Source: Deltaproteobacteria bacterium (GTDB lineage: Bacteria > Desulfobacterota > GWC2-55-46 > DRQE01). Taken from it: DNA of 64,000 nt. Of the stretch, positions 2,027-25,332 are shown in pieces. Positions within the stretch are counted from its first letter, which is position 1, and the number at the start of each line of letters is the position of its first letter. The DNA is taken from positions 6,231-70,230 of the forward strand of contig WGFM01000032.1 in the NCBI GenBank assembly GCA_015492245.1. The letters are read 5' to 3'. The notes under the pieces are model-generated. The model was not told the DNA's origin. It worked only from the letters and a program-made list of their open reading frames with translations, and made no database searches. The position numbers and the translations under genes were made by a program.

Positions 2027-2071
2027 CTCTACAAACAAAAGACCCCGGGCCCTACAGACAGGCCCGGGGTC
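2027..2071 (-). terminator. Rho-independent terminator downstream of aclA
   Basis: Perfect 11-bp GC-rich stem gaccccgggcc/ggcccggggtc (2041-2071), followed on the minus strand by UUUUGUUUGU. Confidence 0.6.
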
Positions 2072-2101
2072 TACACTGGGTGAAATTCTTTCAGACAGGT
2101 T

Positions 2102-4825
2102 TTACCGTATGAATGTGCACCGGCTTGCAGGGGTGCGGGTATCCATGTCTCTACCCCTGTTTATGTGGTCGTCTATCTCTGCTGCACAGCCTACCATCCT
2201 GCCAAAGAGGAAGGTGGTGAACGCTGCGTTCTCAACCTCTTTCTCGGTCATCCTGCCACTGGTGAAGGTGTTCCAGACCATCTTAAGGAGTATCACCGCT
2301 ATCACGGCATCCACATTCACACAGAACACATTCCTCGTAACCCTTGCCTCGAAGAGCGACTGCACAAGTGTTCTGTAGAAGTCAAGGAACACATTGTATA
2401 TACGGCGCTCCTTGAAGACCTCTTCGATGAAGCGCTCCCTTGGGTCGTAGTTTACCTGCTTACCCTTGAACACGGGATGTCCCACGCATGGTATCTTCTT
2501 GTACTCTATATTGCCTATGGCCTTCTGCTCTGTCTTGTACTGGCCATACCAGGTGGCATACTCGTCTGCTATCTTCTTAAGGTCCAGCCCGTGCTCGGCA
2601 CTGCCAGGGTCTTCAAGGCCCGTGTTACGGAACCTCTCTATGAGAAACTCTATGGCCTCGTAGCCATTGCCACCATGTGCAAACCCTGTGTGGGTCAGAA
2701 ACCCTGCAAAGGCCTTGTTTATCTGCACCCTGATGGGGTCTTCCGGCCCATCGGCACTTACGGCACCCTTGCTGCCCTGGGCAGATATGGTGCCAGGCCC
2801 GTTGGACACAATCAGTCCCAGAAGAAGCGAGAACTCGAAGAGCTCTTCCTCTGTGGGCCTTCTTCCAACAAGGGCAAGGAAGGCCGTCTCTGTAAAGGAC
2901 CACTCCCCAGTAAGCTCCGTATCCTTCACCCCACAGAAGGCATCCTCTGTGTGCCTCTCTGCCGGCACACTGCAGGCAATCATCTTGGAGAACAGAAGGG
3001 AATACCAGGGCAGTGTAACAAATGTAACCCTCGATATATCCTTCCTCAAAAGGGGCTTCCATGCAAGGGTTGCCCACACGGCCGCAAGAAGCGCAGCCCT
3101 GGAAGGCAGCCCCCTGGCCACATCCCTCACAAAATCGACAAACACAGAGCTTCTTCCCGCACCATCTACCTTGTCAACCATTGCCCTGAGCACCCTATCC
3201 TCTCCATCAGAGGCCCTGAAGAGCACCCTGTCATCATCACTCAAGCCATCTATTATCTCTTTGTAATCAAGTGGTTCTGCAGGGTCTTTAACAACAAGCT
3301 TGAAGTTGTCGAATATTATCTCCATTATACGCTGTGCATCTTTTACCCTGGCTCTACCCACTATGGATATGGCAGATGTGAGCACCGTATTCGGGGAATT
3401 TCCCTCTTTTCTTGCAGCATCTGCACAGAGGAGTTCTGGCAGGTTACAGGAGTTTACGAACCCGTTGAGCACAGTGTTTGCAAGCTCACGCTCGTAGCTA
3501 TCAGGGTAGTTCTTTATGACCGAGAGCACAAGGTTTTCCTCGAAGGAGTGTTTGCCAGCATCGAGTATGGAGACCCCGTGGAGTTTTGTTATCTGGGTAG
3601 TGGGGTCCATCATTGACGCACCACTTGCATCCTTCATGGACTGGCGCGGATACTGTGCGCCAACCTGTTTGAGTATCTCTTCTATCTGTTCCCCGTATGG
3701 AGAGATTGCCCTTACGGTCTGTATGTCCAGTTCCCTGGGAACCTGTATGCTCGCATTGTTTGCAAACCAGCATTTGAGGGAAAGGTCTCCTCTTGGCTCG
3801 AAGTCGGGCTCTATGCCGTTCAATTCCATAACCTTTGTGAGTGCCTCTGGTATGTGTGCTATGTTTGTAACCACCGCACCCTTCTTCGAGAAGACGGGGT
3901 TCTCCGGTGTATAGATGTCATCCACCCCGAAGTAATCCATGAACCAGCGCTCCTTTGCCCTGGCATCGTCGCCACTGCCGGCAAGGCTTCCGGCGTGCCC
4001 ACATGCCTTCGTGAGCCTTGCCTTCCATCTGCCAACAACACATGCAACGGTGGGCCTGGTTATGTTGAGGTCCTTTTCGTAGTATCCACCTGGCTCCACA
4101 TATATGACGGCACACTTGCTCCTCGGGTCATTGGAGAGGGCATGGAAGAACTCACGGGGTGCAAAGTGTATGTACACATCCTTTCCGCTCGATATGGATG
4201 TGGTAGTGCCCCATCCCTTTGTAAGGAGGTATACAGCAATTGTGGTAGTGAAGTTACCAGAATTTGAGTATATGGCTACAGAGCCCTTCACCAGGGACTC
4301 CTCGGGTCTGCTTCCGCCGAGGGCTCCACCGATTCTCACCCTGTTCCACGAGTCTGCCACACCCAGGCAGTTTCCACCGAACACATCCACCCCGTTTGTC
4401 TGGCAGATGGCCCTTATTATACGGGCATCGTGGATGGGAATCTTCTCTGTTATTATGATTATCTTCTTAAGCTCCGGGTTGAACTTTACCACCTCTGCCA
4501 CTCCGTCCTTGACGCCTGCTGGTGGCAGGTAGACCACTGCGGTGGTAAACCGGTGGCCTGCATCCAGCCCTTCCTTTACAGAGTTGTACACCGGTATATC
4601 ACCTGTGGGGGTCTCCAGCACCTGCCCGCTTCTACCAGGACTTGTGCCGAAGACCACATTCCCACCGCTGAAGGCATGGCTTACAGGGGTTACGGTGCGG
4701 CTCTCTGTGCCAAGGATGTTCAGCACACAGACCCTGTCCTCTTTTGTTGCCACCTCTTCAAGAGAATCTATACCAACATAGTAGGGAAAGTTCTTTACAC
4801 CTTCTTTATGCATCGTATGGTTCAC
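2102..4825 (-). CDS. aclA: ATP-citrate lyase large (alpha) subunit, unusually long form (907 aa): CoA-binding/phosphohistidine domain + citryl-CoA lyase (citrate-synthase-like) domain
   Basis: SucD-like N-terminus. Phosphohistidine loop CGHAGSLAGSGDDARAKE. C-terminal citrate-synthase-like motif PCVGHPVFKGKQVNYDPRE. About 300 aa longer than canonical bacterial AclA. Confidence 0.8.
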   Translation of the reverse strand: MNHTMHKEGVKNFPYYVGIDSLEEVATKEDRVCVLNILGTESRTVTPVSHAFSGGNVVFGTSPGRSGQVLETPTGDIPVYNSVKEGLDAGHRFTTAVVYLPPAGVKDGVAEVVKFNPELKKIIIITEKIPIHDARIIRAICQTNGVDVFGGNCLGVADSWNRVRIGGALGGSRPEESLVKGSVAIYSNSGNFTTTIAVYLLTKGWGTTTSISSGKDVYIHFAPREFFHALSNDPRSKCAVIYVEPGGYYEKDLNITRPTVACVVGRWKARLTKACGHAGSLAGSGDDARAKERWFMDYFGVDDIYTPENPVFSKKGAVVTNIAHIPEALTKVMELNGIEPDFEPRGDLSLKCWFANNASIQVPRELDIQTVRAISPYGEQIEEILKQVGAQYPRQSMKDASGASMMDPTTQITKLHGVSILDAGKHSFEENLVLSVIKNYPDSYERELANTVLNGFVNSCNLPELLCADAARKEGNSPNTVLTSAISIVGRARVKDAQRIMEIIFDNFKLVVKDPAEPLDYKEIIDGLSDDDRVLFRASDGEDRVLRAMVDKVDGAGRSSVFVDFVRDVARGLPSRAALLAAVWATLAWKPLLRKDISRVTFVTLPWYSLLFSKMIACSVPAERHTEDAFCGVKDTELTGEWSFTETAFLALVGRRPTEEELFEFSLLLGLIVSNGPGTISAQGSKGAVSADGPEDPIRVQINKAFAGFLTHTGFAHGGNGYEAIEFLIERFRNTGLEDPGSAEHGLDLKKIADEYATWYGQYKTEQKAIGNIEYKKIPCVGHPVFKGKQVNYDPRERFIEEVFKERRIYNVFLDFYRTLVQSLFEARVTRNVFCVNVDAVIAVILLKMVWNTFTSGRMTEKEVENAAFTTFLFGRMVGCAAEIDDHINRGRDMDTRTPASRCTFIR

Positions 4826-4846
4826 CTCTCGGTAGTTTTTGTGGTT

Positions 4847-6151
4847 TCAAACTGTTGCCTGTGCGGGTTCCTCCCGTTTGCCCAGGAGTTTCTCCTCTAT
4901 GAGCCTTCTACCGCCCTGGCGCATCCACTCGTCCACCGTCAGGGCGTAGTTCACCACCTCGCTCATTGCGCTGTCGTGCCCGAACATACGATATGGAAGC
5001 TTGAGCCTGTCCAGTGTGTCCTTCATGTATGCCATGCCCTTAACAAGGTTTGGCCCGCCTCTGCCTATGACCACAAAGAGCGGTGTGGGGCCATTGTCCT
5101 GGAAGTACTCGCGCAGGGCATCTGCCATGGCACGGAAGGTCTGGTATATATCTGTATTGTTGGCCTTCCCACCTATTATGAAGAGCACATTGCTCTGTTT
5201 GAGCCAGTACTTGAAGACAATCCTTGAAATCTGCAACATCTTCTCATAGGGTGGGTTTCCACCGAAGTCGGAAGATATTGTGGCTCTCTCGCCAAGAAGC
5301 TCTGTAACGAGGGCGTTGGCACCCCCGCCGAAGGTTGGTGCGGTTATGGTGCCATGGGGGTTTATGACGAACACATCGCTCTGGCCCTGATAGGTGCGAA
5401 GCTGGTTTATCTCCTGCTCGAACTCCGAGTAGTCCGAGGCGAAAAGATGCGGTGGAAGCTCCAGCCTCTTCCATGCAGGGTCATCGATGTCGAATGTTGC
5501 CTTGAAATCACATGCGACTGGCACAAGGCGGCCTGCCGCATTCGGCATCATCCTTATGGGGTTGAGCTCTATGAGGCTGAACCCGTAGTTGTTGTAAAGG
5601 GTCCACAGCTTCGGCAGGTTCTGCACGAGGGGGCTTATAATCTCCTTTGGTGCCTTGAGCTCTTCCAGGGCGTTGGCTATGTGGTAGCTCTTAAGCCCTG
5701 TAAGTGGGTCGAAAGGCACCACCCTGAGCTTGTCCTTTGGCACCTCCTCTATGTCCACACCACCCTCGTGTGTTATGGTTATGGTGGGTGCCCTGTAGAC
5801 AGTGGACTCACTTATGGAGAAGTATACCTCATGCTTTGCCGGCACAAAACCCTCGAAGGTTACACCATCTGCCTTTGCCGTGATGTTACCAGCCGAGTGC
5901 TCAACAAAGTAGAGCCTTTCCTTGTGTCTGAGCGCCTCTTCTATGTTCTTTGCCCTGCCTATAAGGCCGGATTTGCCCTTCTTACCAACTCCACCTTTGA
6001 AGACGGGCTTTACGAATATCTCCCCATGTCTCTTTATAAGCTCCTTTATCTCGTCCACACTTGACTCTGGCCCAAGCACATCGGCCACAGGAAACTCCAC
6101 CTTCTTAAGAAGCTTTCCTCCCCATAAAAGGCCTGTTAACTGCATCGACAC
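4847..6151 (-). CDS. aclB: ATP-citrate lyase small (beta) subunit, ATP-grasp succinyl-CoA-synthetase-beta-like
   Basis: 434-aa ATP-grasp SucC-like protein immediately upstream and co-oriented with aclA, with a 21-nt gap. RBS GGAGGTG lies before the ATG at 6151. Confidence 0.75.
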   Translation of the reverse strand: MSMQLTGLLWGGKLLKKVEFPVADVLGPESSVDEIKELIKRHGEIFVKPVFKGGVGKKGKSGLIGRAKNIEEALRHKERLYFVEHSAGNITAKADGVTFEGFVPAKHEVYFSISESTVYRAPTITITHEGGVDIEEVPKDKLRVVPFDPLTGLKSYHIANALEELKAPKEIISPLVQNLPKLWTLYNNYGFSLIELNPIRMMPNAAGRLVPVACDFKATFDIDDPAWKRLELPPHLFASDYSEFEQEINQLRTYQGQSDVFVINPHGTITAPTFGGGANALVTELLGERATISSDFGGNPPYEKMLQISRIVFKYWLKQSNVLFIIGGKANNTDIYQTFRAMADALREYFQDNGPTPLFVVIGRGGPNLVKGMAYMKDTLDRLKLPYRMFGHDSAMSEVVNYALTVDEWMRQGGRRLIEEKLLGKREEPAQATV

Positions 6152-6284
6152 CTCCAGAATTTCCCCCTGTCTTCAAGGGATTTTAAGGTTTTGTATGGAA
6201 CTCATCGAGTGTTCTCTCACAACCCTGTCTGCATATATCCTGCCCTGAAAGGGTAGCTCCCCCATCTCTTCTTTGAGTCTTTAC

Positions 6285-8525
6285 TCATGTTATCACGGTA
6301 GCCGACTCGAGTATCCTGTTGAAGGTCTCGCTTGGACGCATTGCCTTCGAGGTCTTTTCTGGATCAGGTTGATAGTATCCTCCAAGGTCCTTCGGGCTTC
6401 CCTGTGTGGAGTCTATCTCCTCGAGTATCTTTTCCTCCTTTTCAGCAAGCTCTCGGGCTATCCTCGTGAACCGCTCCTTGAGTTCAGGGTCCTCCTCCTG
6501 TTCTGCCAGTGCCTCTGCCCAGTACAGTGCAAGGTAGAAGTGGCTCCCCCTGGTATCCAGCTCACCGCACTTTCTTGAAGGGGATCTGTTGTTATCGAGG
6601 AACTTTGCGTTTGCCCTGCTGAGAGTCTCTGAAAGAACCCTTGCCTTCATGTTGCCCATTACATTGCTCAGGTGTTCCAGTGATTCCGCCAGTGCCAGAA
6701 ACTCTCCGAGGGAATCCCACCTCAGATGTCCCTCCTCTACGAACTGCTGGACATGCTTTGGTGCAGAACCACCGGCACCTGTCTCGAAGAGCGCGCCACC
6801 ATTTATCAATGGCACGATGGAGAGCATCCTTGCACTGGTGCCGACTTCAAGTATGGGAAAGAGGTCAGTAATGTAATCACGCAGCACATTACCTGTAACC
6901 GATATGGTGTCCTTGCCCTCTCTCATCCTCTCTACAGAAAATCTCGTTGCCTCTGCAACGGACATGATACGAATATCAAGGCCCGTGGTGTCGTGTTCCT
7001 TCAGATACTCTTCGACCTTCTTCAAGAGTTCTATGTGGTGGGGCCTGTCCTCATCGAGCCAGAACACTGCAGGTGCGCCTGTGGCCCTTGCGCGTGTTAC
7101 AGCCAGTTTCACCCAGTCCCGTATGGCCAGGTCCTTCACGGTACATGCACGCCATATATCGCCCTCTTCGACCTCGTTCTCGAGTATGGTCCTTCCAGAG
7201 GAATCGACAAGCCGTATGGTTCCCTTTCCAGGGGACTGAAATGTCTTGTCATGTGAACCATATTCTTCTGCCTTCTTTGCCATGAGCCCCACATTGGAGA
7301 CACTCCCCATGGTTCTGGGATCAAAGGCACCGTATTTTTTGCAGTTGTCTATGGTCTCCTGATAGAGGCTTGCATAACTGTGATCTGGAATCACTGCCTT
7401 TGTATCATGGGGGCTGCCATCAGGACCCCACATCTTGCCACCATCACGAATCATTGGTGGCATGGATGCATCTATTATCACATTACTCGGCACATGGAGG
7501 TTAGTAATCCCCCTGGTAGAGTCCACCATGGCAAGTTCAGGACCCCTCCTGTAGACCCCCTCTATGTCAGCCTCGATTTCCTTTCTCTTCTCCTCTGGAA
7601 GGCTCTGTATCTTTGCATACAGTTCCCCGATACCGTTGTTGAGGTCAACCCCGAGTTCTTCTATCAGGTCGGCATGTTTCTCGATAACGTCCCTGTAATA
7701 CATCCTGACGCAATGACCAAAGATTATCGGATCAGAGACCTTCATCATCGTAGCCTTCAGGTGAAGGGAAAAGAGTATACCCATATCCCTCGTTTCATCT
7801 ATCTGTTCAGCCAGGAACTCCAGGAGGGCCTTCTTGCTCATAAATGTGGTATCAACTATCTCGCCGGCCTCCAGCAAGAGTTTCTCCTTCAGAACCGTTA
7901 CATTACCATTCTCATCGACGAACTCTATCCTTGCCTCTGTTGCCTCTGGTATGGTGGTTGATCTTTCGTTGGAACGAAAATCACCATCGCTCATCGTGGC
8001 AACATGTGTCTTCGAGTCGGCCTTCCATTCACCCATCTTGTGTGGGTTCTTCCTTACATACTGTTTGACAGCCTCTGCCACCCTGCGGTCAGAGTTTCCC
8101 TCCCTGAGGACCGGGTTTACGGCACTACCAAGAACCTTTGCATACCTTGCCTTAATCTCCCTCTCCTTGTCATCTTTTGGTTCCTCAGGGTAATCGGGCA
8201 CATTATAGCCCTGTTCCTGCAACTCTTTTATTGCTGCCTTGAGCTGGGGAACAGATGCACTGATGTTCGGCAGCTTGATGATATTTGCCTCGGGCTTCTT
8301 TACAAGTCTGCCAAGTTCAGCCAGATCATCGGGTATCCGCTGGTCCTCCCTCAGATACTCCGGAAAGGTTGCGATGACCCTGCCCGCAAGGGATATGTCT
8401 TTCAACTCTATCTCGATACCGCAACCATGTGTGAAACTCTTTATAATCGGCAACAGGGAATAAGTTGCCAGTGCAGGTGCCTCATCGGTCCTGGTCCAGA
8501 CAATCTTTGATACCTGTGATGTCAT
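6285..8525 (-). CDS. icd: Monomeric NADP-dependent isocitrate dehydrogenase (about 740-aa type)
   Basis: 746 aa. Collinear match to monomeric IDH (Azotobacter/Corynebacterium type): [57 protein letters not shown]...[30 protein letters not shown]. Confidence 0.92.
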
Positions 8526-8551
8526 GATTTACCTCCTTTAAAGAATCTCTC

Positions 8552-8579
8552 GAGTTTATCGTTGCATGCCTGTTAGACA
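8552..8579 (-). promoter_or_regulatory. Putative sigma70-type promoter for icd (TTGTCT-N16-TAAACT)
   Basis: Minus strand reads ttgtct-aacaggcatgcaacga-taaact, then aaggagg RBS 7 nt before the icd ATG at 8525. Confidence 0.3.
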
Positions 8580-8584
8580 AAAAT

Positions 8585-8612
8585 GTCAGTCTCTAACTGG
8601 GTAGAGACTGAC
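8585..8612 (-). terminator. Hairpin / probable intrinsic terminator between GH63 gene and icd
   Basis: 11-bp perfect stem gtcagtctcta/tagagactgac with 5-nt loop, followed on the minus strand by AUUUUUUG. Confidence 0.4.
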
Positions 8613-8767
8613 AAATATTCAACAAAACTCACCTTACGAACGAGCTATCCAGATTGTCGGTGGTAAATATATAGCACTATCTTTATTCCCTGTCAAGTTT
8701 TTTATCTTTTGGTTCATACCCTCATGCAACGCAGAGCCAGGCGTTCCACATTGGAGCAAAGGGCTCT

Positions 8768-10090
8768 TCAATCACAGCAGACGGCGGCTATGGTTAGTGC
8801 CGCAGTCCAGGAGAAACCGTCTATCCCGCAGCCCTTCTTCTTGATGGGGTCGAAGTATTCATGGAATCCGTATCTTTTTATGAGTTCCAGCATGGATTCC
8901 TTTATTTCAAGGGCCTTGTGTGTATAGCCATATTTTTTAAGCCCCTCGTATACAATCCAGTTCATGTTTGCCCATACAGGGCCCATCCAGTATCTATCGG
9001 AGCTGAAGTCTTCCTCGCATCTTGGATAACTTGGCACGGCACTGTTTGTCTCTTCCATACCACACTGGCAGACCCTGTCTATATACCGGTAGAGCCTTTC
9101 GGCCTGTTCATGGGCAGGCACCCCTGCAAAAAGTGGAGAGAACGATGCAGCAGTGGGTTTTCTTATCTGTGAGCTCGTCCTCAGATTGTAGCTATAATAC
9201 ATTCCTGCCTCTTCGTTCCAGAGCACCTTCTCGATGGCCTTTCTGGTGGAGGCCAGGTATTCCTTTGGTTCCAGGGTGTCCTGTCCTACAATCCTTCCTA
9301 TCTCTATGAGGCATTCGTTGGCCCTGCACAGAAGAGAGTTGAACAGCACATCGTAGACCAGAAAAGGCGAGTCCTTCACCATCTGGTGTTGCTGGTAGCC
9401 GTATTCTTTGAATAGTTCAACGAGATATACATATCTTTTGTAGAGTTCATCCTCTGGCCTCTCATCTGGTGGCACATTGATTATGTCTTTTCTTCTGTAA
9501 GTAGTGGCATAGCCCTGTGGTATGGGGATGCCCCTGAGCATATCACGCCATGCAGGCGAGTCATCCTGGCCCGATTCCCAGGGGTGCACCATTGCAATGA
9601 GTCCGTCTCTGTGGGGGTCTCTTTCCCGGTAGAGGAAGCGATGAAAATCAAGAAGCCTGGGATAGATGTAGCCGAGAAACCTCTTGGCCTCCTCCATATC
9701 CACGGCGTTGTTGTAAAAGTAGAGTGCGCCGATGGTGAGAAGTGGTGGCTGTATTATGCATGAGGTGTCCACACCCCTTGGGGCATATACTGGTAGGGGG
9801 CGCCAGAAGGATGCATTGGGAAAATACTCACTGTAGGCAGGGTTGTATCTTATGTGCGGCACCATGCCATCTGCCCATTGTGCCTTAAGGAGAGAGACCA
9901 GCTCTCTTTTTGCCCTCTCCTCGTCGAAGTATGAATAGCCTATGGCGATGAAACCAGAGTCCCAGCTCCACTGGTGAGGATACTGCTTTACAGAGGGGGC
10001 GGTGTAATTGCCCTGCCAGTTCCTGTCAAGCACCTCTCTTGCCCTTCTTATAAGGGTTATGAGCTTTTTCTCCTCTTTTCTATCATACAT
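8768..10090 (-). CDS. Glycoside hydrolase family 63-like (mannosylglycerate/glucosylglycerate hydrolase-type, six-hairpin glycosidase)
   Basis: 440 aa. Resembles bacterial GH63 compatible-solute hydrolases (QWSWDSGFIAIGY, WPHIRYNP, MVHPWESGQDDSPAW, WMGPVWANMNW). Confidence 0.6.
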   Translation of the reverse strand: MYDRKEEKKLITLIRRAREVLDRNWQGNYTAPSVKQYPHQWSWDSGFIAIGYSYFDEERAKRELVSLLKAQWADGMVPHIRYNPAYSEYFPNASFWRPLPVYAPRGVDTSCIIQPPLLTIGALYFYNNAVDMEEAKRFLGYIYPRLLDFHRFLYRERDPHRDGLIAMVHPWESGQDDSPAWRDMLRGIPIPQGYATTYRRKDIINVPPDERPEDELYKRYVYLVELFKEYGYQQHQMVKDSPFLVYDVLFNSLLCRANECLIEIGRIVGQDTLEPKEYLASTRKAIEKVLWNEEAGMYYSYNLRTSSQIRKPTAASFSPLFAGVPAHEQAERLYRYIDRVCQCGMEETNSAVPSYPRCEEDFSSDRYWMGPVWANMNWIVYEGLKKYGYTHKALEIKESMLELIKRYGFHEYFDPIKKKGCGIDGFSWTAALTIAAVCCD

Positions 10091-10223
10091 CGTTGCATCC
10101 CCTTCAGTTGCCTGTTAGATACTATTGCCCCAACCCCGTTGTTGAGCCCACACCAGAACGATGGCAAAGGTCCGTCCTGTAGTCCTTACCCTGGCAGCAA
10201 GGTTATATCTACACCCTACCAGA

Positions 10224-10556
10224 TCACTTCTTCTTTTCTATACTGTCCAGATCACAGCAGGAGTGTCCCTCGCTCTGGAGGGCATCGCGCTCGTTTTCTT
10301 CTGTATAGTGTATCCAGCCTCTCTTGAACCTCTCGAGAAAGCTATCATCGAGAACAAAGCCGTTCTTTTCCATCCAGTGTTCCACGGCCTCTTCACAGCA
10401 CATAAGGAGATCATATTCCACAGAGATTTCTTTTTTCTCCATATCCACACTCACCTTGGATACCCCCCTGACCTTCCCTATAAGCTCCTCAATCTCTTCA
10501 TTTCTGCCCGAAGGGGCCTTCTTGAATCTTATGTGACGATATTTAAGGACAGCCAT
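10224..10556 (-). CDS. Hypothetical small protein, HMA-like fold with Cys pairs (CC ... HSCC)
   Basis: 110-aa ORF with beta-alpha-beta-like segment LIGKVRGVSKVSVDMEKKEISVEYD plus LMCCEE and GHSCCD. Lies in a cluster with small metal-ligand-rich membrane proteins. Confidence 0.35.
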   Translation of the reverse strand: MAVLKYRHIRFKKAPSGRNEEIEELIGKVRGVSKVSVDMEKKEISVEYDLLMCCEEAVEHWMEKNGFVLDDSFLERFKRGWIHYTEENERDALQSEGHSCCDLDSIEKKK

Positions 10557-10585
10557 CTGGACACCTCCTTTTGTGAGAGCAGCCG

Positions 10586-10852
10586 TCAGGCCTGCTTGCC
10601 AAACTTCATGTTGAAAAGGTTATAGAAGGGTGTGAACACAAGCCCTATGTAGATGCCATAAAGGAAGCTTTCTATAAGTCCCAGGAAGAAACTCCACCAG
10701 CTTATCCACTCAAACCCTGGTAGAAGTCTTATCCATGCCTCGTACATTGCGTAGCCAGGAAATATGAGATCGAACAGAACACAGAGCACATAGGTGAAAC
10801 TGAGGAAACACCCGGTAGAAAAACCAACCACCTTCCAGTCAAGAAACCCCAT
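10586..10852 (-). CDS. Small integral membrane protein (two TM helices), hypothetical
   Basis: 88 aa, hydrophobic: FLDWKVVGFSTGCFLSFTYVLCVLFDLIF...ISWWSFFLGLIESFLYGIYIGLVF. Confidence 0.4.
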   Translation of the reverse strand: MGFLDWKVVGFSTGCFLSFTYVLCVLFDLIFPGYAMYEAWIRLLPGFEWISWWSFFLGLIESFLYGIYIGLVFTPFYNLFNMKFGKQA

Positions 10853-10871
10853 CTTCTAACCTCCTTTTTTG

Positions 10872-11048
10872 TCAATGGCACGACTTCTTCTCATCTCCGC
10901 CCTCTCTTCCGGCTTCCTTCCCCTGGCCTCCTTTTTCCGTGTCTTTGTGGCCTCCTCCGCAGCATCCACCACGGCGCATCATGAAGTAGAATATTGCCCC
11001 TATGATGAGAAACCATACTATAGCATTAACACCTTCCATGATTACCAT
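10872..11048 (-). CDS. Tiny single-TM protein with Cys/His/Gly-rich tail (GGCCGGGH...SCH)
   Basis: Short form MVIMEGVNAIVWFLIIGAIFYFMMRRGGCCGGGHKDTEK...SCH from ATG at 11046-11048. The track's 92-aa form has an unstructured N-extension. Confidence 0.4.
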   Translation of the reverse strand: MVIMEGVNAIVWFLIIGAIFYFMMRRGGCCGGGHKDTEKGGQGKEAGREGGDEKKSCH

Positions 11049-11255
11049 CCTGTTTTTGAGGTTTTCTCCACTATACCGGGAGACACAGGCCACGCCTTCG
11101 GTAGATTGGGATACCCGGATCAATGGAACTGGTGGGCAGTTTAGGGTCATGCCCAGGACCTTCTACAGTGTCCCTCACCACAGTGTGCCACCCGGGGAAC
11201 CATAAATCTATACCTCATTTCTCATACCCCCTTTCTGTCTGTTAATGCCTGTTCA

Positions 11256-11426
11256 GTCTGCTCTGTGCTCCAGCCCTTGCGGACAACCTTTGTCCGGCGC
11301 TTCTTTTTTCTCCATCTTCTGCTCGTCTGTCCTGTGCATCTCCTTGTGCATGGGCATGTGGACGGACCCACCGAGCAGATACAGCCCCAGTACCACCACC
11401 ATCATCACCCCCATCAGGAATTCCAT
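11256..11426 (-). CDS. Tiny single-TM protein with His/Met-rich motif (HMPMHKEMH); not in ORF track (56 aa)
   Basis: Own translation: MEFLMGVMMVVVLGLYLLGGSVHMPMHKEMHRTDEQKMEKKEAPDKGCPQGLEHRAD. RBS AGGAGGG 6 nt upstream and a TTGACA-N17-TATGAT promoter with a palindromic operator. Confidence 0.55.
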
Positions 11427-11461
11427 GAAACCCTCCTGAAAGACAATCCTCCCATAATGAA

Positions 11462-11490
11462 ATCATATTCTACAAAGCGTAGAATGTCAA
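11462..11490 (-). promoter_or_regulatory. Near-consensus sigma70 promoter TTGACA-N17-TATGAT with embedded palindrome TTCTAC-N5-GTAGAA (operator-like)
   Basis: Minus strand reads cTTGACAttctacgctttgtagaaTATGATttc. The inverted repeat ttctac gcttt gtagaa fills the spacer. About 29 nt to the ATG at 11426. Confidence 0.55.
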
Positions 11491-11527
11491 GGGATAAAGA
11501 GGACATTCATGGTGTTTTTCTAATGGC

Positions 11528-12124
11528 CTATTTTCTGCCTTCCGTAGGGTGTGTAATAAGGGTGGTTCTGAAGAACCTTACGAAGTAGTCAATCCCTGAC
11601 CACAGGGTAACAACCAGTGCCAGCCATATGAGCCAGACTCCCAGGAGTTGAAAGTCTATCCCCCACAGCTCGTAGTGCAGAAGCAGGGCGGTTATGGCCG
11701 CTATCTGGCTTACTGTCTTGACTTTGCCCAGCCATGTTGCGCCTATAACTATGCCTGTTCTTACCGCCATGGTTCGAAGCCCTGTAACGGCTATCTCACG
11801 AGATACTATGAGGGCAACCATCCAGGCAGGCACCCGATCGAGGGATATGAGCATTATCAGGGCTGTGACTATGAGGAGTTTGTCCGCAAGGGGATCGAGG
11901 AACTTCCCGAGGGATGTAACCGTGCCCCACCTTCTTGCAAGCCATCCATCGAGCCAGTCGGTAGCACACACAATAAGAAAGACAAGGGCTGCAATTATAC
12001 TCAATGTCCTGCCGGGTGAGAGAAGAACAAGTATAAGAAACGGTGATGCCCCTATCCTCACAAGGGAAAGGATGTTTGGCAGGTTCCAGAGCTCTTGCCG
12101 AAAATCGTTCTCCATTTGTTTCAC
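11528..12124 (-). CDS. pgsA: CDP-diacylglycerol--glycerol-3-phosphate 3-phosphatidyltransferase (CDP-alcohol phosphatidyltransferase family)
   Basis: 198 aa with CDP-OH_P_transf signature DWLDGWLARR...G...DPLADK and multiple TM helices. Confidence 0.75.
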   Translation of the reverse strand: MKQMENDFRQELWNLPNILSLVRIGASPFLILVLLSPGRTLSIIAALVFLIVCATDWLDGWLARRWGTVTSLGKFLDPLADKLLIVTALIMLISLDRVPAWMVALIVSREIAVTGLRTMAVRTGIVIGATWLGKVKTVSQIAAITALLLHYELWGIDFQLLGVWLIWLALVVTLWSGIDYFVRFFRTTLITHPTEGRK

Positions 12125-12197
12125 TTCTCTATCTCCACCCCTTTCTATCCATTAAGTCTATACCCATAGGGATGGAAGGGCAAGAATTTTTTAGGGC

Positions 12198-12227
12198 TTG
12201 ACACAGCTACTCCCATTCCTGTAAGTT
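12198..12227 (+). promoter_or_regulatory. Putative sigma70 promoter for nadB (TTGACA-N18-TAAGTT)
   Basis: ttgaca at 12198-12203 and taagtt at 12222-12227, in the divergent intergenic region between pgsA and nadB. RBS AGGAGG lies before the ATG at 12258. Confidence 0.35.
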
Positions 12228-12257
12228 TTTTAGAATACACAGGAGGTTGTTACCCCC

Positions 12258-13868
12258 ATGGAGGTGAAGAGCGATTTTCTCGTCATCGGCAGTGGCATTG
12301 CGGGGCTCACCTTTGCCCTCACCGTTAAGGACCATGGCACCGTCGCCATCGTTACAAAGAGAGACAGGAAAGAGTCTGCCACTTTCTATGCCCAGGGTGG
12401 CATTGCATCGGTTCTGAGCAGTGAGGACAGCTTCGATGCCCACATACGGGACACCATAAAGACAGGGTGTGGCCTTTCTCATCCAGATGTTGTGGAGCTG
12501 GTGGTAAAGGATGGCCCACGAAGGATACAGGAGCTTATAGACATGGGCGTACACTTTACGGCAGGAAAAGAAGGGCTTGATCTGGGCAAGGAAGGAGGCC
12601 ATTCCAGAAGGAGGATAGTCCATGCAGGAGACCTTACCGGCAAGGAGGTCGAGGATGCGCTCCTTCGTGCCATAGATAAGGAAGAGAACATTACAATATA
12701 CGAGAACCACATAGCCGTAGACCTTATAACCCATTCCAAGTTCGTGGGACGCACCACCGATGACCGTGTGTGGGGCGCCTATGTGCTCGATAAATCCACA
12801 GGCCAGATACACACCTTCCTCGCCCGTGCGACCATACTTGCCACAGGTGGTGCAGGCAAGGTATACCTGTATACCAGCAACCCCGATGTGGCCACAGGCG
12901 ATGGCATAGCCATGGCATACCGGGCAGGGGCAGAGTGTGGTAACATGGAATTCATGCAGTTCCATCCCACCTGCCTGTATCATCCAAAGGCGAAGAGCTT
13001 TCTCATATCAGAGGCCCTCCGTGGAGAAGGGGCAATCCTGAGGCTCAAGGACTCGACCCCCTTCATGAAGAAATACCACCCCGATGGCGAGCTCGCCCCA
13101 CGCGACATTGTTGCAAGGGCAATAGACTTCGAACTGAAAAAGAGTGGAGATGAATGTGTCTACCTCGATATAAGCCATCGTCCAGCAGAGTTCGTAAAGA
13201 AGAGGTTCCCCAATATATACAGAAGATGCATCGAGTTCGGCTTCGATATGACACGAGAGCCCATCCCTGTGGTGCCTGCTGCACACTACATATGTGGTGG
13301 GGTAAGGACAGACAGGTGGGGGCAGACCACCATAAGAAGACTCTATGCCATAGGCGAGACCGCACACACAGGGCTGCATGGTGCCAACAGGCTTGCCTCG
13401 AACTCTCTGCTCGAGGCCCTGGTGTTTGCAAAGAGGGCAGCTGAACACTCCACAGAACTGGTAAAGAACGACAGGGAGGAGATACCCCCCATCCCGCCAT
13501 GGCATACAGGTGGAGCGGTCATAAGCGATGAGATGGTGGTCATCACCCACAACTGGGATGAAATAAGAAGGTTCATGTGGAACTATGTTGGTATCGTAAG
13601 GTCCAACCGCCGGCTCGAGCGTGCAAAAAGAAGGATAGAGGTGCTCTCCGAAGAGATAGACCAGTACTACTGGGACTTCATACTCACATCAGACCTCGTG
13701 GAACTGAGAAACATAGCGGTCGTATCAGAACTCATAATAAACTCTGCCATATACAGGAAGGAATCGAGGGGGCTCCACTACAACATAGACTTTCCAGAGA
13801 GGGATGACCTCCGTTTCAACAAGGATACCATCATAAGGAGGAAGGCTCAGGGGTCCGAGACCCTGTAA
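12258..13868 (+). CDS. nadB: L-aspartate oxidase
   Basis: 536 aa. FAD-binding VIGSGIAGL, fumarate-reductase/succinate-dehydrogenase flavoprotein family. Characteristic NadB blocks [32 protein letters not shown]. Confidence 0.9.
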
Positions 13869-14913
13869 GGTGAAACCTTATGGTGAAGGTTGTGCCCTTT
13901 CCCTTCTCGCTCTCCACCTCTATGTCCCCGTTGTGGTTCTCTATTACCCTGTACGCTATGGTGAGTCCAAGGCCTGCCCCTGTAACCTTTGATGTGAAGA
14001 AGGGATGAAAGATCCTTCTTGCAACCTCGCTCTCCATACCACAGCCCGTATCCCTTATCTTCACCACAAGGATATTTCCCTCTGCCGGAAGGGTGGAGAT
14101 GGTTATCTCGCCCTTCCTGTCTATGGCATCTATGGAGTTATGCAGCAGGTTCAGAAGGGCAACCCGTAGATGAGCACTATCCATCTCGAACTCTGGCACC
14201 CCTGGCATGAGCTCTGTCTTTATTGTAATATCCTTCTCACCAATGAACTTTCTGGCCTCTTCTACCGCCTCCTCTATAACCTGGTTTATGTTACCAGGAC
14301 GCATCCTTGGGGTCAGAATACCCTTGTATTCATCTATCCTCTCCATCATCTTCTCGAGCCTCTCCACATAGGCCATCATGACCTCAAGGTATTTCCTGTG
14401 GTCAGGGTTTGTCTCGTGCTCATAGAGGCGCCTTGCCATCCCCCCTATGCTCACAAGTGGGTTACGAACCTCGTGGGCTATCTGGTCTACCATCTCGCCG
14501 AGGACGGCCATCTTCTCTGCCTCCCTGAGTTTTGTCTGCAGCATCTTGACCCTCAAAAGAGACCTTACCCTCGCACTCACCTCCACGAGGCTGTAGGGCT
14601 TGACTATGTAGTCTTCGGCACCCATCTCAAGCCCCATGACCTTGTCATCCAGTTCACCCCTTGCAGTCAGCATTATTACGGATATGTAGCGTGTGCGCTC
14701 GTCGGACTTGAGACGCCTGCACATCTCATAGCCATCCATCCGTGGCATCATGATGTCAAGAAGGACGAGGTCGGGCCTGAACTTTTCAACCTTCTCAAGC
14801 CCCTCTACTCCATCCTTTGCGGTGTCCACCTGGTAGCCGTCTGCCGTCATCTTCTCGGAGAGCAGAAAACGGCTCTTCTCGTTATCATCAACAATGAGTA
14901 TTCTTGGTTTCAT
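13831..14913 (-). CDS. Hybrid two-component protein: N-terminal receiver domain fused to HisKA + HATPase_c histidine kinase (no sensor or TM domain)
   Basis: REC signature ILIVDDNE...[10 protein letters not shown]...DYIVKP. HisKA H-box IAHEVRNPL. HATPase block DTGCGM...GAGLGLTIA. 3' end overlaps nadB by 38 bp (convergent). Confidence 0.8.
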
Positions 14914-14919
14914 ATCTGA

Positions 14920-15669
14920 TCAGAATCCTACCCGAAACATTATGAATGGTCCTGTCAGTTCAAGGTCTACCTTGTCGTCATCGTTTTCTGCATACAACTG
15001 CAGGTACCTGTACCCACCAGATATGGTCATGAGGGGCATGGGTCTTATATTCACCCCCACCTCTCCATCGACAAAGTGGGCATCCCCCCCATAGGTCATA
15101 CCTGTAAGTTCACCCTCTATACTGAACAGTGCTGGAAGCCCCAGCCTGAAGGCAACACCGATGGCAGGAAAACCCATGGCCAGGGACTCTGCCTCATCTA
15201 TGGTTGCAGACTTAAGTGAGGCGTCTATATCCATATACTTGAGCTCCGCTATTACGCCGAGCCTGTTTCCTGCAACACTTATGAAGTCGTACTGATAGCC
15301 AAGACGATGGTAGTCCACATCGAGGCTCGATGTTACAGCTGTGTTGACACTGTAGGTCCTGCCTGCAAAGTTTATACTCCTCGTTATGGTCTTCGCACCA
15401 TCCCAGCTCATTGGCACAAAGGCATACCTTATACTGTGCTTTCCCATCTGAAGGGTTATCCTTGCCTCGAGAAAGTTCTCCTCTGTATCCACACCGAGGT
15501 CCTTCTCAAAATCCATGGTGGTGCCGGTGAGTCCACTTTCTGTAACCTTTACCTCGGCATCGAGCTCGCTCACCCAGTATCTTGCCTCTGCCTTGATTAA
15601 TGCCATGGCATCAGACTGGAAGATTATCACAGAAGCTATGGTCGCAACGATCATTATCAGCCTTCTCAT
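14920..15669 (-). CDS. Outer-membrane beta-barrel protein (OmpA-like/porin family, 8-10-strand class), with signal peptide
   Basis: Start chosen at MRRLIMIVATIASVIIFQSDAMA (RBS GGAGGA upstream) rather than the track's longer ORF. Alternating amphipathic strands, C-terminal ...MFRVGF. Confidence 0.6.
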   Translation of the reverse strand: MRRLIMIVATIASVIIFQSDAMALIKAEARYWVSELDAEVKVTESGLTGTTMDFEKDLGVDTEENFLEARITLQMGKHSIRYAFVPMSWDGAKTITRSINFAGRTYSVNTAVTSSLDVDYHRLGYQYDFISVAGNRLGVIAELKYMDIDASLKSATIDEAESLAMGFPAIGVAFRLGLPALFSIEGELTGMTYGGDAHFVDGEVGVNIRPMPLMTISGGYRYLQLYAENDDDKVDLELTGPFIMFRVGF

Positions 15670-15739
15670 GCCCCTTGTCCTCCTTTCGACAGTATTAATA
15701 CTTGACAGTCTCCTCCAGCTGGCATAACCTGAATACAGT

Positions 15740-16120
15740 ATGTTTCTGAAACTCTTCATACTCTTCACCGTGGTTCCTGTGGTGGAGCTTGCCCTTCTCA
15801 TAAAAGTGGGCACCATGATAGGCACGCTCAACACTGTGGCACTTGTGATACTCACTGCCATCGTGGGCGCCTACATGGTAAGGCTTGAAGGACTCAATGT
15901 GTTCTACCGTTTTCAAAGAAACCTCCTGCATGGCATATTCCCTGCCGAGGAGATATTCGATGGCGCACTCTTGCTCGTGGCAGGTGCCCTCCTTATAACC
16001 CCTGGTATTATAACCGACATACTGGGCTTTTCCATAGTATTTCCACCATCGAGAAGGGTGATAAAGAACATCCTCAGACGCTACTTTGAGAAAAGGTTCG
16101 AGTTAAGGGTCATAAGATAG
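15740..16120 (+). CDS. fxsA: FxsA family inner-membrane protein
   Basis: 126 aa, two N-terminal TM helices, conserved LLLVAGALLITPGIITDILG..RR block typical of FxsA. Confidence 0.7.
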   Translation: MFLKLFILFTVVPVVELALLIKVGTMIGTLNTVALVILTAIVGAYMVRLEGLNVFYRFQRNLLHGIFPAEEIFDGALLLVAGALLITPGIITDILGFSIVFPPSRRVIKNILRRYFEKRFELRVIR

Positions 16121-16134
16121 TACATTGTTTTCTG

Positions 16135-16614
16135 CTATATCTGGGGGCTCGAAGGGCCTGCCTGCTTGCCCATCTCGTATCTTATCGTCCCTGACTGGTC
16201 TGCATAGAACCACCGTATCTGTGTGTTCCCATCCTCTGGCTCCACCCTCAGAGACCATGTGGAGTCCTCCTCCAGACCACCTGAGACCGAAAGCGTATAC
16301 CTGTAGCCCTCGTATATCCTTACATTGTTACCGCCACCTGACGGAGCTGTTCCTGGCATATTGAGTTCACTGAAGTCATCGGTGTATACACCCTTCTCTG
16401 CCCTGTACAACTCCTGTGCCTTCATGATCTGCTTTGTGTGGAGTATCGCAACGGTCTCCTTTGTCTTGTATATGAACTTGAAGTATACCATTGTGGCTAT
16501 TGCCGCCAGAACACCTATGAAGAACAGCACCACAATCAGCTCAACCAGGGTGAACCCTGACTGAGAGTGTAAACCAAACAGCCCCTTCCTGTCTCCCTCA
16601 GACCTTTTTACCAT
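16135..16614 (-). CDS. Type IV pilin/pseudopilin (prepilin-type N-terminal methylation motif)
   Basis: G|FTLVELIVVLFFIGVLAAIA N-terminal helix. Leader may be shorter than the track's start. Confidence 0.75.
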   Translation of the reverse strand: MVKRSEGDRKGLFGLHSQSGFTLVELIVVLFFIGVLAAIATMVYFKFIYKTKETVAILHTKQIMKAQELYRAEKGVYTDDFSELNMPGTAPSGGGNNVRIYEGYRYTLSVSGGLEEDSTWSLRVEPEDGNTQIRWFYADQSGTIRYEMGKQAGPSSPQI

Positions 16615-16622
16615 AAAGAAGG

Positions 16623-17213: not shown

Positions 17214-17340
17214 GGTTAATTCCTCGTTACCATGAGATGATAAAACAATTGTCCCCCTCTGTCAAACATAAAAAAGCCGTCCCATCCTGCGGTTATTTGC
17301 CTGATGGAACGGCTGTATTCTTCGTCCCCGACAATGTGCC

Positions 17341-18498: not shown

Positions 18499-18546
18499 CC
18501 TTTCGTACCTCCTTGAGTAGTCTTTGGTAGCAGAGTATACTCTGGC

Positions 18547-19242: not shown

Positions 19243-19248
19243 CTTCTC

Positions 19249-21152: not shown

Positions 21153-21208
21153 CTCTCTGTAACCCTGTTTTGAAGGAAAGGTAAGGAGGTTGCCCCTCTC
21201 TTATATTG

Positions 21209-23224: not shown

Positions 23225-23297
23225 TTAAACCTGCCTCCTTACACCACAAAAGATAAGAACGAATGCTAAATATACCCTCTGTTCTCCTGAAAAGGAT

Positions 23298-23702: not shown

Positions 23703-23712
23703 CTTTCCGTAG

Positions 23713-24672: not shown

Positions 24673-24722
24673 ACAAAAACCTCCCTGAAGTAAAGACAAA
24701 ATACCTTACTAACTTAGTCAAG

Positions 24723-24750
24723 TTTATAATAGATTAGTATTTTTGTCAAG
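24723..24750 (-). promoter_or_regulatory. Internal sigma70-type promoter TTGACA-N16-TATAAA upstream of cysM
   Basis: Minus strand reads TTGACAaaaatactaatctatTATAAAct, within the 88-nt gap between the NIL gene stop and cysM. Confidence 0.4.
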
Positions 24751-24787
24751 AACTTTAACAAAAAAAGGCACTTACGGTGGGAGGGTC

Positions 24788-25302: not shown

Positions 25303-25332
25303 ACCTTGAGTTACCTCCTTTTTGATGGGGTT

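What the first reader, a model, noticed from the sequence alone, without database searches (positions are those of the whole stretch)
2102..8525. Reductive-TCA signature module with an unusually long ATP-citrate lyase large subunit (possible type II ACL) next to a monomeric IDH
aclB (ATP-grasp, 434 aa) and aclA (907 aa) are adjacent, with a monomeric 746-aa isocitrate dehydrogenase just upstream. Canonical bacterial AclA is about 600 aa. Here about 300 extra residues sit between the phosphohistidine loop (CGHAGS) and the citryl-CoA-lyase domain (VGHPVF). That insertion is reminiscent of the type II ACL proposed for a few magnetotactic and Nitrospirota-like lineages. This points to autotrophy via rTCA in the source organism.
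Basis: partly seen in the sequence, partly recalled or inferred. Interest (0 to 1): 0.6.

Follow-up and report, generated by a model that had tools for sequence, protein, structure and literature searches.

The report
Type II ATP-citrate lyase operon
The window carries an isocitrate dehydrogenase gene followed by the two genes of a "type II" ATP-citrate lyase, a known but never purified enzyme family, and the extra 300 residues of its long subunit turn out to be mostly a catalytically dead second copy of its own citryl-CoA-lyase domain.

Summary
Three co-oriented minus-strand genes, bracketed by terminator-like hairpins, encode a monomeric NADP-IDH (746 aa), an AclB-like ATP-grasp and citrate-binding subunit (432-434 aa) and a 903-907-aa AclA-like subunit.

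The long subunit is not a fusion artefact. Thousands of homologues are about 900 aa long. It is 59-60% identical over its full length to the Candidatus Endoriftia persephone protein, which both published type II ACL primers match exactly. [quoted passage not shown] So this is a new member of a known, biochemically uncharacterised kind.

What is new here is the anatomy of the "insertion". It is a conserved linker of about 100 residues plus a domain of about 225 residues (residues 405-630). That domain is a diverged duplicate of the C-terminal citryl-CoA-lyase domain (hhalign E 3e-10; a confident AlphaFold model whose best 39 PDB matches are all CCL modules). It lacks the His/His/Asp catalytic residues.

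The autotrophy inference is only partly supported. IDH linkage is shared with rTCA autotrophs. However, the family is also common in aerobic Burkholderiales, and the window holds no OGOR, POR or fumarate reductase.

The parts
6285..8525 (-). idh: monomeric NADP-dependent isocitrate dehydrogenase, 746 aa
   Evidence: PF03971 1293.6 bits over the full length; TIGR00178 equivalog 1267.7 bits (cutoff 950). It is 70% identical to the monomeric IDH next to the Endoriftia type II ACL.
4847..6151 (-). aclB (type II ACL small subunit): ATP-grasp plus citrate-binding domain. The ORF runs from GTG 6151 (434 aa); the likely start is ATG 6145 (432 aa).
   Evidence: PF16114 Citrate_bind 72 bits and PF08442 ATP-grasp_2 55 bits. 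Best PDB matches are Hydrogenobacter CCS large subunit 6hxq_B (E 5e-35), Methanothrix ACL 6hxi_A (7e-32) and human ACLY residues 63-419 (1e-21). The ANNT and GRGGPN motifs align with ACLY ANFT and RRGGPN. A GGAGG site lies 5 nt before ATG 6145. This gene lies immediately upstream of aclA in every related locus that has sequence there.
2102..4825 (-). aclA (type II ACL large subunit). The ORF runs from GTG 4825 (907 aa); the likely start is ATG 4813 (903 aa).
   Evidence: [quoted passage not shown] Homologues start at MHKxGV. A GAGAGG site lies upstream of ATG 4813.
3917..4747 (-). AclA residues 27-303 (907-aa numbering): succinyl-CoA-synthetase-alpha-like CoA-binding and phosphohistidine module. 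The catalytic His277 codon is at 3995-3997.
   Evidence: NF004230 matches residues 27-303 at 112 bits, below its 336-bit cutoff. The best PDB match is citryl-CoA synthetase small subunit 6hxq_A, E 1.5e-30, with GHAG aligned. G276-H277-A278-G279 are invariant in 33 homologues.
3614..3916 (-). AclA residues 304-404: conserved linker. It is also present in the 694-aa single-CCL relatives.
   Evidence: There is no family hit. The segment is strongly conserved, with invariant F295, F299, P310, G316, D341, W353, F354, Y377, R394 and D407 even against the 694-aa relative, and it is 63-68% identical to Endoriftia and Magnetococcus. AlphaFold confidence is low for residues 347-410.
2936..3613 (-). AclA residues 405-630: catalytically dead duplicate of the citryl-CoA-lyase (citrate-synthase-homology) domain. 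This is the bulk of the 'insertion'.
   Evidence: hhalign against residues 631-907 gives probability 96.7%, E 3.1e-10 over 198 columns, while controls give 0.1-0.2%. The domain-only AlphaFold model has pLDDT 88.2 and pTM 0.85. Its best 39 Foldseek PDB hits are all CCL or CCL modules of ACL (6hxp E 2.3e-4; TM 0.51-0.65 over about 230-260 columns). The catalytic positions map to R493, a deletion and A577. The domain is absent from the 694-aa and Planctomycetota relatives. It is the fastest-evolving domain, at 36-49% identity.
2105..2935 (-). AclA residues 631-907: catalytic citryl-CoA-lyase domain. Codons: His717 at 2675-2677, His783 at 2477-2479, Asp839 at 2309-2311.
   Evidence: NF004869 citryl-CoA lyase matches residues 623-898 at 53.5 bits, and PF00285 scores 32 bits. 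It aligns to Hydrogenobacter CCL 6hxp_A with AHGG, GHxxxK and NVD motifs in register. H717, H783 and D839 are invariant in 33 homologues.
2040..2072 (-). Terminator-like hairpin 30 nt after the aclA stop codon.
   Evidence: 13-bp stem with 10 G-C pairs, followed by TTTGTTTGT.
8584..8613 (-). Terminator-like hairpin upstream of idh that closes the preceding gene. Together with 2040-2072 it brackets idh-aclB-aclA as one probable transcription unit.
   Evidence: 12-bp stem followed by TTTTTGTCT. There is no comparable hairpin between idh, aclB and aclA.

Best explanation
idh-aclB-aclA is a three-gene unit encoding a monomeric NADP-isocitrate dehydrogenase and a heteromeric type II ATP-citrate lyase.

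Inferred mechanism, by homology to CCS/CCL and ACLY:
1. AclB binds ATP (ATP-grasp) and citrate (citrate-binding domain).
2. His277 of the SCS-alpha-like module of AclA is phosphorylated and passes the phosphate to citrate.
3. CoA attacks citryl phosphate to give citryl-CoA.
4. The C-terminal CCL domain (His717, His783, Asp839) cleaves citryl-CoA to acetyl-CoA and oxaloacetate.

Shown here: the roughly 300 extra residues are a conserved linker (304-404) plus a tandem, catalytically dead copy of the CCL domain (405-630). This architecture is shared by all type II ACLs, including those of Endoriftia and Magnetococcus.

Inferred only: because citrate-synthase-fold enzymes work as dimers or tetramers, the dead copy probably serves as a built-in partner (pseudo-dimer or scaffold) for the active copy. 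The linkage with IDH places the enzyme in the citrate/isocitrate/2-oxoglutarate segment of the TCA cycle. Reductive use (rTCA) is the most likely direction but is not demonstrated for this organism.
For: - Family identity: 59-60% full-length identity to the Endoriftia (P0409) and Magnetococcus massalia (P0472, named putative type II ACL AclA) proteins. Both published type II primers match the Endoriftia gene in L027 exactly, and the motifs they encode are present here.
- Conserved length and gene pairing.
- Chemistry: the phosphohistidine motif and the CCL His/His/Asp are invariant. The ACL/CCS-type citrate-binding motifs are present in AclB.
- Closer to CCS and CCL than to type I ACL: 6hxq_A E 1.5e-30 against 6hxj_B E 2.7e-10.
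- Duplication: hhalign E 3e-10 with negative controls; a confident domain model; Foldseek top 39 hits all CCL modules; catalytic residues lost; single-CCL relatives lack the domain.
- TCA linkage: a monomeric IDH is adjacent in 11 related loci from three lineages. In Endoriftia, aconitase, pntAB and mdh follow it.
- Literature: type II ACL is treated as the citrate-cleaving enzyme of rTCA in Endoriftia, Magnetococcus and Nitrospina (PMC3522073, PMC6783814, PMC3578206, PMC6315080). Gmet_0305/0306 are assigned as ACL in the G. metallireducens model.
Against: - No type II ACL has been purified or assayed in the literature I could search. The activity is inferred from homology and from cell-extract or proteome data in other organisms.
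- All curated family scores are far below cutoff.
- The pseudo-dimer role of the dead domain is inference. I had no access to inter-domain geometry or a multimer model, and the full-length model is only moderate (pLDDT 70.5, pTM 0.59).
- A profile of the dead domain does not reach significance against PDB sequences (CCL E 0.44, in register).
- The family occurs in many aerobic Burkholderiales in non-TCA contexts. It also occurs beside a canonical type I ACL on one Nitrospinota contig. So the role need not be the same everywhere.
- No other rTCA marker gene lies in the window.
Confidence: 0.75

Rival explanations
1. The enzyme is a genuine type II ACL, but in this organism it does not serve autotrophy. 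It could run towards citrate as an ATP-yielding citrate synthase during acetate oxidation, as described for Desulfobacter postgatei (own knowledge). Alternatively it could supply acetyl-CoA and oxaloacetate heterotrophically, with IDH working oxidatively.
For: - The ACL reaction is close to equilibrium (about -8 kJ/mol in the table of PMC13147460).
- The source lineage is 'Deltaproteobacteria'/Thermodesulfobacteriota-like.
- Homologues occur in the acetate oxidiser Geobacter metallireducens and in many aerobic Burkholderiales.
- No OGOR, POR or Frd gene lies in 64 kb.
- The adjacent IDH is of the ordinary NADP type.
Against: - IDH-ACL linkage is shared with Endoriftia (an rTCA cluster with aconitase and mdh) and with Nitrospinota, both regarded as rTCA autotrophs.
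- In G. metallireducens the genes sit beside an acquired fumarate reductase and PEP carboxylase, and were used to predict growth on formate plus CO2.
- Absence of marker genes from a 64-kb window says little about a whole genome.
Confidence: 0.3
2. The pair is not a citrate enzyme. It would be an ATP-dependent CoA ligase and lyase for a different di- or tricarboxylate (for example a substituted malate or citrate analogue), and the 'type II ACL' label would be a misnomer.
For: - No biochemical characterisation was found.
- Similarity to validated ACLs is very low (PMC3578206).
- Burkholderiales contexts contain transporters (MFS, TctC), an aldolase, an acyl-CoA ligase and a separate 260-aa CCL-like protein.
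- The pair coexists with a canonical type I ACL 4 kb away in a Nitrospinota contig.
Against: - PF16114 citrate-binding domain and the ACL/CCS-specific ANNT and GRGGPN motifs are present.
- Linkage to IDH, aconitase and MDH recurs.
- Magnetococcus extracts cleave citrate, and its genome has no other candidate enzyme (PMC6783814).
Confidence: 0.12
3. The long ORF is an artefact: a misassembly, a frameshift-joined pair of genes, or a chance read-through fusing an AclA with another gene.
For: Pfam recognises nothing between residues 304 and 622.
Against: - More than 3000 homologues were found, and the best 120 in each of three searches are 897-946 aa apart from one 809-aa protein annotated as partial, from isolates with complete genomes and from MAGs of several phyla.
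- Alignment is collinear over the full length.
- The middle region folds confidently.
Confidence: 0.01

Closest known systems
Type II ATP-citrate lyase of Candidatus Endoriftia persephone and Magnetococcus (Hugler and Sievert 2011; Mmc1_3638/3639; tubeworm-symbiont aclA)
   Same: - Same two-gene arrangement.
- Same large-subunit size, about 905-925 aa.
- 59-60% identity over the whole length.
- Same primer motifs.
- Same linker plus dead-CCL plus live-CCL architecture.
- In Endoriftia, the same adjacency to a monomeric IDH.
   Different: - The host is an uncultured Thermodesulfobacteriota/'Deltaproteobacteria'-like lineage.
- Gene order is idh-aclB-aclA rather than aclB-aclA-idh-acn-pntAB-mdh.
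- No neighbouring aconitase or mdh.
Type I ATP-citrate lyase (Chlorobium limicola AclBA, PDB 6HXJ; human ACLY)
   Same: - Same overall logic: ATP-grasp and citrate-binding subunit, SCS-alpha-like phosphohistidine module, and C-terminal citryl-CoA-lyase module with His and Asp catalytic residues.
   Different: - AclA is about 610 aa with a single CCL module.
- Sequence similarity is marginal (6hxj_B E 2.7e-10 for the N-terminal module only). A true type I AclA from a Nitrospinota contig scores E 1e-253.
- Type II has a second, dead CCL domain and a longer linker.
Citryl-CoA synthetase plus citryl-CoA lyase of Hydrogenobacter thermophilus (PDB 6HXQ, 6HXP)
   Same: These are the closest solved relatives of all three catalytic parts: 6hxq_B E 5e-35, 6hxq_A E 1.5e-30, and 6hxp_A as the best hit of both CCL copies.
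   Different: There CCL is a separate 268-aa protein. Here it is fused to the CCS small-subunit homologue and duplicated.
Fused single-CCL AclA of Planctomycetes and relatives (described as intermediate between CCS/CCL and type II ACL in PMC5459899)
   Same: 37-38% identical, collinear, and shares the conserved linker and the catalytic CCL domain.
   Different: About 694 aa. It lacks residues 412-630, that is, the duplicated dead domain.

Membership tests
Type II ATP-citrate lyase | Adjacent genes for an ATP-grasp/citrate-binding small subunit and a long CoA-binding large subunit | tested here: met
   aclB is at 4847-6151 and aclA at 2102-4825, 21 nt apart. The same pairing occurs in all related loci that have sequence upstream.
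Type II ATP-citrate lyase | Large subunit orthologous to the Endoriftia and Magnetococcus proteins for which the type was proposed | tested here: met
Type II ATP-citrate lyase | Sites of the published type II aclA primers (acl2F1 and acl2R1) | tested here: met
   The primers match the Endoriftia gene in L027 exactly and are 1317 bp apart. The peptides they encode, AKEEWF and NGFEAIA, correspond to AKERWF (residue 290) and NGYEAIE (residue 720) here.
Type II ATP-citrate lyase | More similar to CCS/CCL than to type I ACL | tested here: met
   6hxq_A E 1.5e-30 against 6hxj_B E 2.7e-10. 6hxq_B E 5e-35 against 6hxj_A E 7e-11.
Type II ATP-citrate lyase | ATP- and CoA-dependent cleavage of citrate to acetyl-CoA and oxaloacetate | not testable with these tools
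   This needs an enzyme assay. I found no report of a purified type II enzyme.
Type I ATP-citrate lyase (K15230/K15231, Chlorobium type) | AclA of about 600 aa with one citryl-CoA-lyase module and high similarity to validated ACLs | tested here: not met
   The protein is 903 aa with two CCL-fold domains. It shows only marginal similarity to 6hxj_B. A genuine type I AclA from L029 scores E 1e-253.
Type I ATP-citrate lyase (K15230/K15231, Chlorobium type) | Catalytic phosphohistidine, and His and Asp of the lyase site | tested here: met
   H277, H783 and D839 are invariant and aligned to the CCS and CCL motifs.
[quoted passage not shown] | CCL encoded as a separate protein | tested here: not met
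   The CCL domain is fused to the CCS-small-subunit homologue in one ORF that is conserved across the family.
Succinyl-CoA synthetase | Scores above the curated cutoffs of the sucC and sucD models | tested here: not met
   NF004230 scores 112 bits (cutoff 336). TIGR01016 scores 65 bits (cutoff 376).
Monomeric NADP-isocitrate dehydrogenase | Full-length match above the curated cutoff | tested here: met
   TIGR00178 scores 1267.7 bits (cutoff 950). PF03971 covers 1-734 of 734 positions.
Reductive TCA cycle (pathway) | 2-oxoglutarate:ferredoxin oxidoreductase, pyruvate:ferredoxin oxidoreductase and fumarate reductase in the same genome | not testable with these tools
   None lies in the 64-kb window. 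About 50 of the longer ORFs were scanned, and 12258-13868 is NadB (NF006567 770 bits, cutoff 629). The rest of the genome is not available.

The most novel reading that the evidence does not exclude
The defining extra length of type II ACL would be an undescribed tandem duplication of the citryl-CoA-lyase domain, in which the first copy has lost all catalytic residues. It would act as an intramolecular partner for the active copy, giving a quaternary architecture different from the homotetrameric CCL core of type I ACL and ACLY. In addition, because the same enzyme is widespread in aerobic Burkholderiales and can sit beside a type I ACL, type II ACL would not be a reliable marker of rTCA autotrophy.
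Probability: 0.45. Interest if true: 0.55.

Novelty: new member of a known kind. Interest (0 to 1): 0.4.

Why it matters
Type II ACL is used as a marker gene for the reductive TCA cycle in tubeworm symbionts, magnetotactic cocci and Nitrospina. Yet it has never been purified, and its odd size has not been explained in the papers I could search.

Most of the extra length is a dead copy of the enzyme's own lyase domain. This gives a concrete, testable structural hypothesis: a built-in pseudo-dimer with half the active sites. It also suggests a plausible evolutionary series, from CCS plus CCL, to a fused single-CCL AclA, to the duplicated type II form.

The family's abundance in aerobic Burkholderiales, and its coexistence with type I ACL on one contig, warn against reading the gene alone as proof of autotrophy in metagenome surveys. 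That includes the uncultured Thermodesulfobacteriota-like lineage from which this window comes.

Tried and rejected
- Pfam on the isolated insert (E up to 10) found only a spurious phage-scaffold hit.
- An HMM of the insert against PDB sequences was not significant (CCL E 0.44, though in register). The duplication therefore rests on profile-profile and fold evidence.
- Foldseek with the full-length model was dominated by the SCS-alpha module and was uninformative for the insert.
- I considered that the insert might complete a full citrate-synthase fold. I rejected this because the domain aligns over about 230-260 columns to whole CCL modules and to the protein's own C-terminal domain.
- The FAD flavoprotein at 12258-13868 was checked as a possible fumarate reductase. 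It is L-aspartate oxidase.
- The biotin carboxylase at 43688-45022 is ordinary AccC.
- The genome-contig scan found only close relatives. Endoriftia and Magnetococcus members had to be reached through the published primer sequence and a third protein search.
- Gene-fusion artefact: rejected.
- I could not obtain inter-domain contacts or a heteromer model, so the pseudo-dimer idea remains untested.

Full report
**Observation**

- The 746-aa protein is a full-length monomeric NADP-isocitrate dehydrogenase (PF03971 1294 bits; TIGR00178 1268 bits against a cutoff of 950).
- The 434-aa protein has an ATP-grasp domain and the ACL citrate-binding domain (PF16114, 72 bits).
- The 907-aa protein has a succinyl-CoA-synthetase-alpha-like module (residues 27-303) and a weak citryl-CoA-lyase/citrate-synthase match (residues 623-898). 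Nothing is recognised in between.
- CGHAGS and VGHPVF are at residues 275 and 781.
- Homologue N-termini and ribosome-binding sites indicate that the real starts are ATG 4813 (903 aa) and ATG 6145 (432 aa).
- Terminator-like hairpins at 8613-8584 and 2072-2040, with none in between, suggest that idh-aclB-aclA is one transcription unit.

**Not an artefact**

A search of 5.8 billion proteins gave more than 3000 relatives. The best 120 were all 897-912 aa and 66-90% identical, and came from uncultured 'Deltaproteobacteria'/Thermodesulfobacteriota and Nitrospinota. In 22 genome loci the aclB-like gene always lies directly upstream wherever sequence is available. The closest relative (90% identity, L028) has the same gene order over 20 kb.

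**It is a type II ACL**

- The term comes from Hugler and Sievert 2011, as cited in PMC3522073, PMC6783814 and PMC6315080.
- The published type II aclA primers translate to AKEEWF and NGFEAIA. The window protein has AKERWF and NGYEAIE.
- Searching metagenome contigs for the forward primer returned one contig (L027), which also matches the reverse primer exactly 1317 bp away.
- The gene on that contig encodes a 905-aa protein identical to the Candidatus Endoriftia persephone protein (P0409). It is 59% identical to the window protein from residue 5 to 906.
- The length is therefore the norm of the type, not an oddity of this locus.
- As expected for type II, the subunits resemble Hydrogenobacter citryl-CoA synthetase (6hxq_A E 1.5e-30; 6hxq_B E 5e-35) more than Chlorobium ACL (E 2.7e-10; 7e-11).
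- Nitrospina gracilis was reported to have two genes with 'very low similarities' to ACL (PMC3578206). Nitrospinota MAG proteins are 62-70% identical to the window protein.
[quoted passage not shown] A 909-aa G. metallireducens protein (ABB30551.1) is 45-46% identical; from its accession number it is probably Gmet_0306, which I inferred and did not verify.

**What the extra 300 residues are**

- An alignment with a 694-aa relative and a Planctomycetota relative shows that those proteins lack residues 412-630 but keep residues 304-410. The extra length therefore has two parts.
- A profile of residues 405-630 aligns to a profile of residues 631-907 of the same family with hhalign probability 96.7% and E 3.1e-10 over 198 columns. 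Controls against the N-terminal module, and of the linker against the C-terminal domain, gave 0.1-0.2%.
- AlphaFold2 predicts the region as a confident all-helical domain. pLDDT is about 90-96 within the full-length model. For the domain alone, pLDDT is 88.2 and pTM 0.85.
- Foldseek of the domain model against the PDB returns, as its first 39 hits, only Hydrogenobacter citryl-CoA lyase (6hxp, E 2.3e-4) and the citryl-CoA-lyase modules of Chlorobium, Methanothrix and human ACL. TM-scores are 0.51-0.65 over about 230-260 columns. Citrate and methylcitrate synthases follow.
- The C-terminal copy aligns to CCL with the AHGG, GH and NVD motifs in register. His717, His783 and Asp839 are invariant.
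- In the first copy these positions are Arg493, a deletion and Ala577.
- The first copy is the fastest-evolving part (36-49% identity to other lineages, against 59-81% elsewhere) but is retained at full length in every type II member examined.
- Conclusion: the 'insertion' is a conserved linker plus a catalytically dead tandem duplicate of the lyase domain. I found no mention of this in the searchable literature. The original 2011 review is not in the library, so I cannot exclude that it is noted there.

**Mechanism**

- By homology, AclB binds ATP and citrate. Its IIGGKANNT and GRGGPN motifs align with the ACLY residues that I recall as citrate-binding (N346, T348, R379; residue numbers from memory, alignment).
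- His277 of AclA is the phosphohistidine.
- Citryl-CoA is made and then cleaved at the C-terminal lyase site.
- These steps are inferred, not shown.
- Citrate-synthase-fold enzymes function as dimers or tetramers (established knowledge; Verschueren et al. 2019 structures 6HXH-6HXQ). I therefore propose that the dead copy pairs with the live copy within one chain. I could not test this, because no inter-domain geometry or multimer model was available and the full-length model is only moderate (pTM 0.59).

**Autotrophy**

In favour of a TCA role:
- A monomeric IDH is adjacent to the pair in 11 related loci.
- These include Endoriftia, where aconitase, transhydrogenase and malate dehydrogenase follow, and a Nitrospinota contig.
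- The window IDH is 70% identical to the Endoriftia one.

Against reading the gene as proof of rTCA autotrophy:
- The family is abundant in aerobic Burkholderiales (Variovorax, Cupriavidus necator, Polaromonas, Acidovorax, Comamonas, Ralstonia; 55% identity).
- There it lies in contexts with a Crp regulator, an aldolase and an MFS transporter, or with a stand-alone CCL-like protein, an acyl-CoA ligase, TctC and IclR.
- The window itself contains only housekeeping functions: assimilatory sulfate reduction, fatty-acid synthesis, accBC, aromatic amino-acid synthesis and type IV pili.
- The one Frd-like flavoprotein in the window is NadB.
- The reverse direction is thermodynamically feasible, and ACL is used that way in Desulfobacter (own knowledge).
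- I put rTCA autotrophy in the source organism at about even odds, pending the genome.

**Verdict**

- The 'possible type II ACL' reading is right.
- The 'insertion' is better described as a dead duplicate domain plus a linker.
- The autotrophy inference is plausible but unproven.
- The locus is a new member of a known kind. The domain anatomy is the most interesting product of the analysis.

Noticed in passing
L029 6968-18259 (Nitrospinota MAG contig JBGMQP010000133.1): One contig carries a type II pair (422 + 907 aa) followed by a monomeric IDH. About 4 kb further on it carries a canonical type I pair (400 + 610 aa); the 610-aa protein matches Chlorobium AclA at E 1e-253. Two ACL types side by side suggests that they are not simply redundant.
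   Followed up: partly
L023/L024 (Variovorax) 6363-14084; L030 (Cupriavidus necator) 8695-17320: Aerobic Burkholderiales carry full-length type II ACL pairs (55% identity) without IDH. In Variovorax they lie next to a Crp regulator, a class II aldolase and an MFS transporter. In C. necator they lie next to a 260-aa stand-alone citrate-synthase-fold (CCL-like) protein, an AMP-forming acyl-CoA ligase, TctC receptors and an IclR regulator. This hints at a heterotrophic organic-acid role.
   Followed up: partly
window 3614-3916 (AclA residues 304-404): The linker between the phosphohistidine module and the first CCL copy is highly conserved, even in the 694-aa single-CCL relatives. Yet AlphaFold predicts it with very low confidence (residues 347-410, pLDDT below 50), and it matches no family. 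It may fold only against AclB or CoA.
   Followed up: no
window 27939-28072 (-): A SAM riboswitch (RF00162, 83.8 bits, E 3e-18) lies upstream of a 417-aa PLP-dependent enzyme gene (26600-27853). It sits at the edge of a sulfur-assimilation cluster.
   Followed up: no
window 17341-29071: Sulfur-assimilation cluster: ATP sulfurylase, a PAPS/APS-reductase-like gene, a Na/sulfate symporter, a variant radical-SAM protein, a ThiF-family protein, two PLP enzymes and a LysR regulator. It also holds a small 324-aa sulfite-reductase-like protein with a ferredoxin insert, whose best match (AsrC, 137 bits) is far below the 324-bit cutoff.
   Followed up: partly
window 1-64000: Almost all long ORFs are on the minus strand. 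GC skew is negative in nearly every 2-kb bin, so cumulative skew falls almost monotonically. This is consistent with a single replichore whose genes are co-oriented with replication.
   Followed up: no
window 50016-63994: A large type IV pilus cluster: pilMNOPQ, minor pilins with N-methylation motifs, a 1070-aa PilY1-like protein and a sigma-54 activator at the window edge.
   Followed up: no
P0136 (694 aa, JGI metagenome), P0143 (Planctomycetota): Single-CCL fused AclA relatives (37-38% identity) lack residues 412-630. They fit the 'intermediate between CCS/CCL and type II ACL' described for Planctomycetes in PMC5459899, and they suggest the order fusion first, duplication second.
   Followed up: partly
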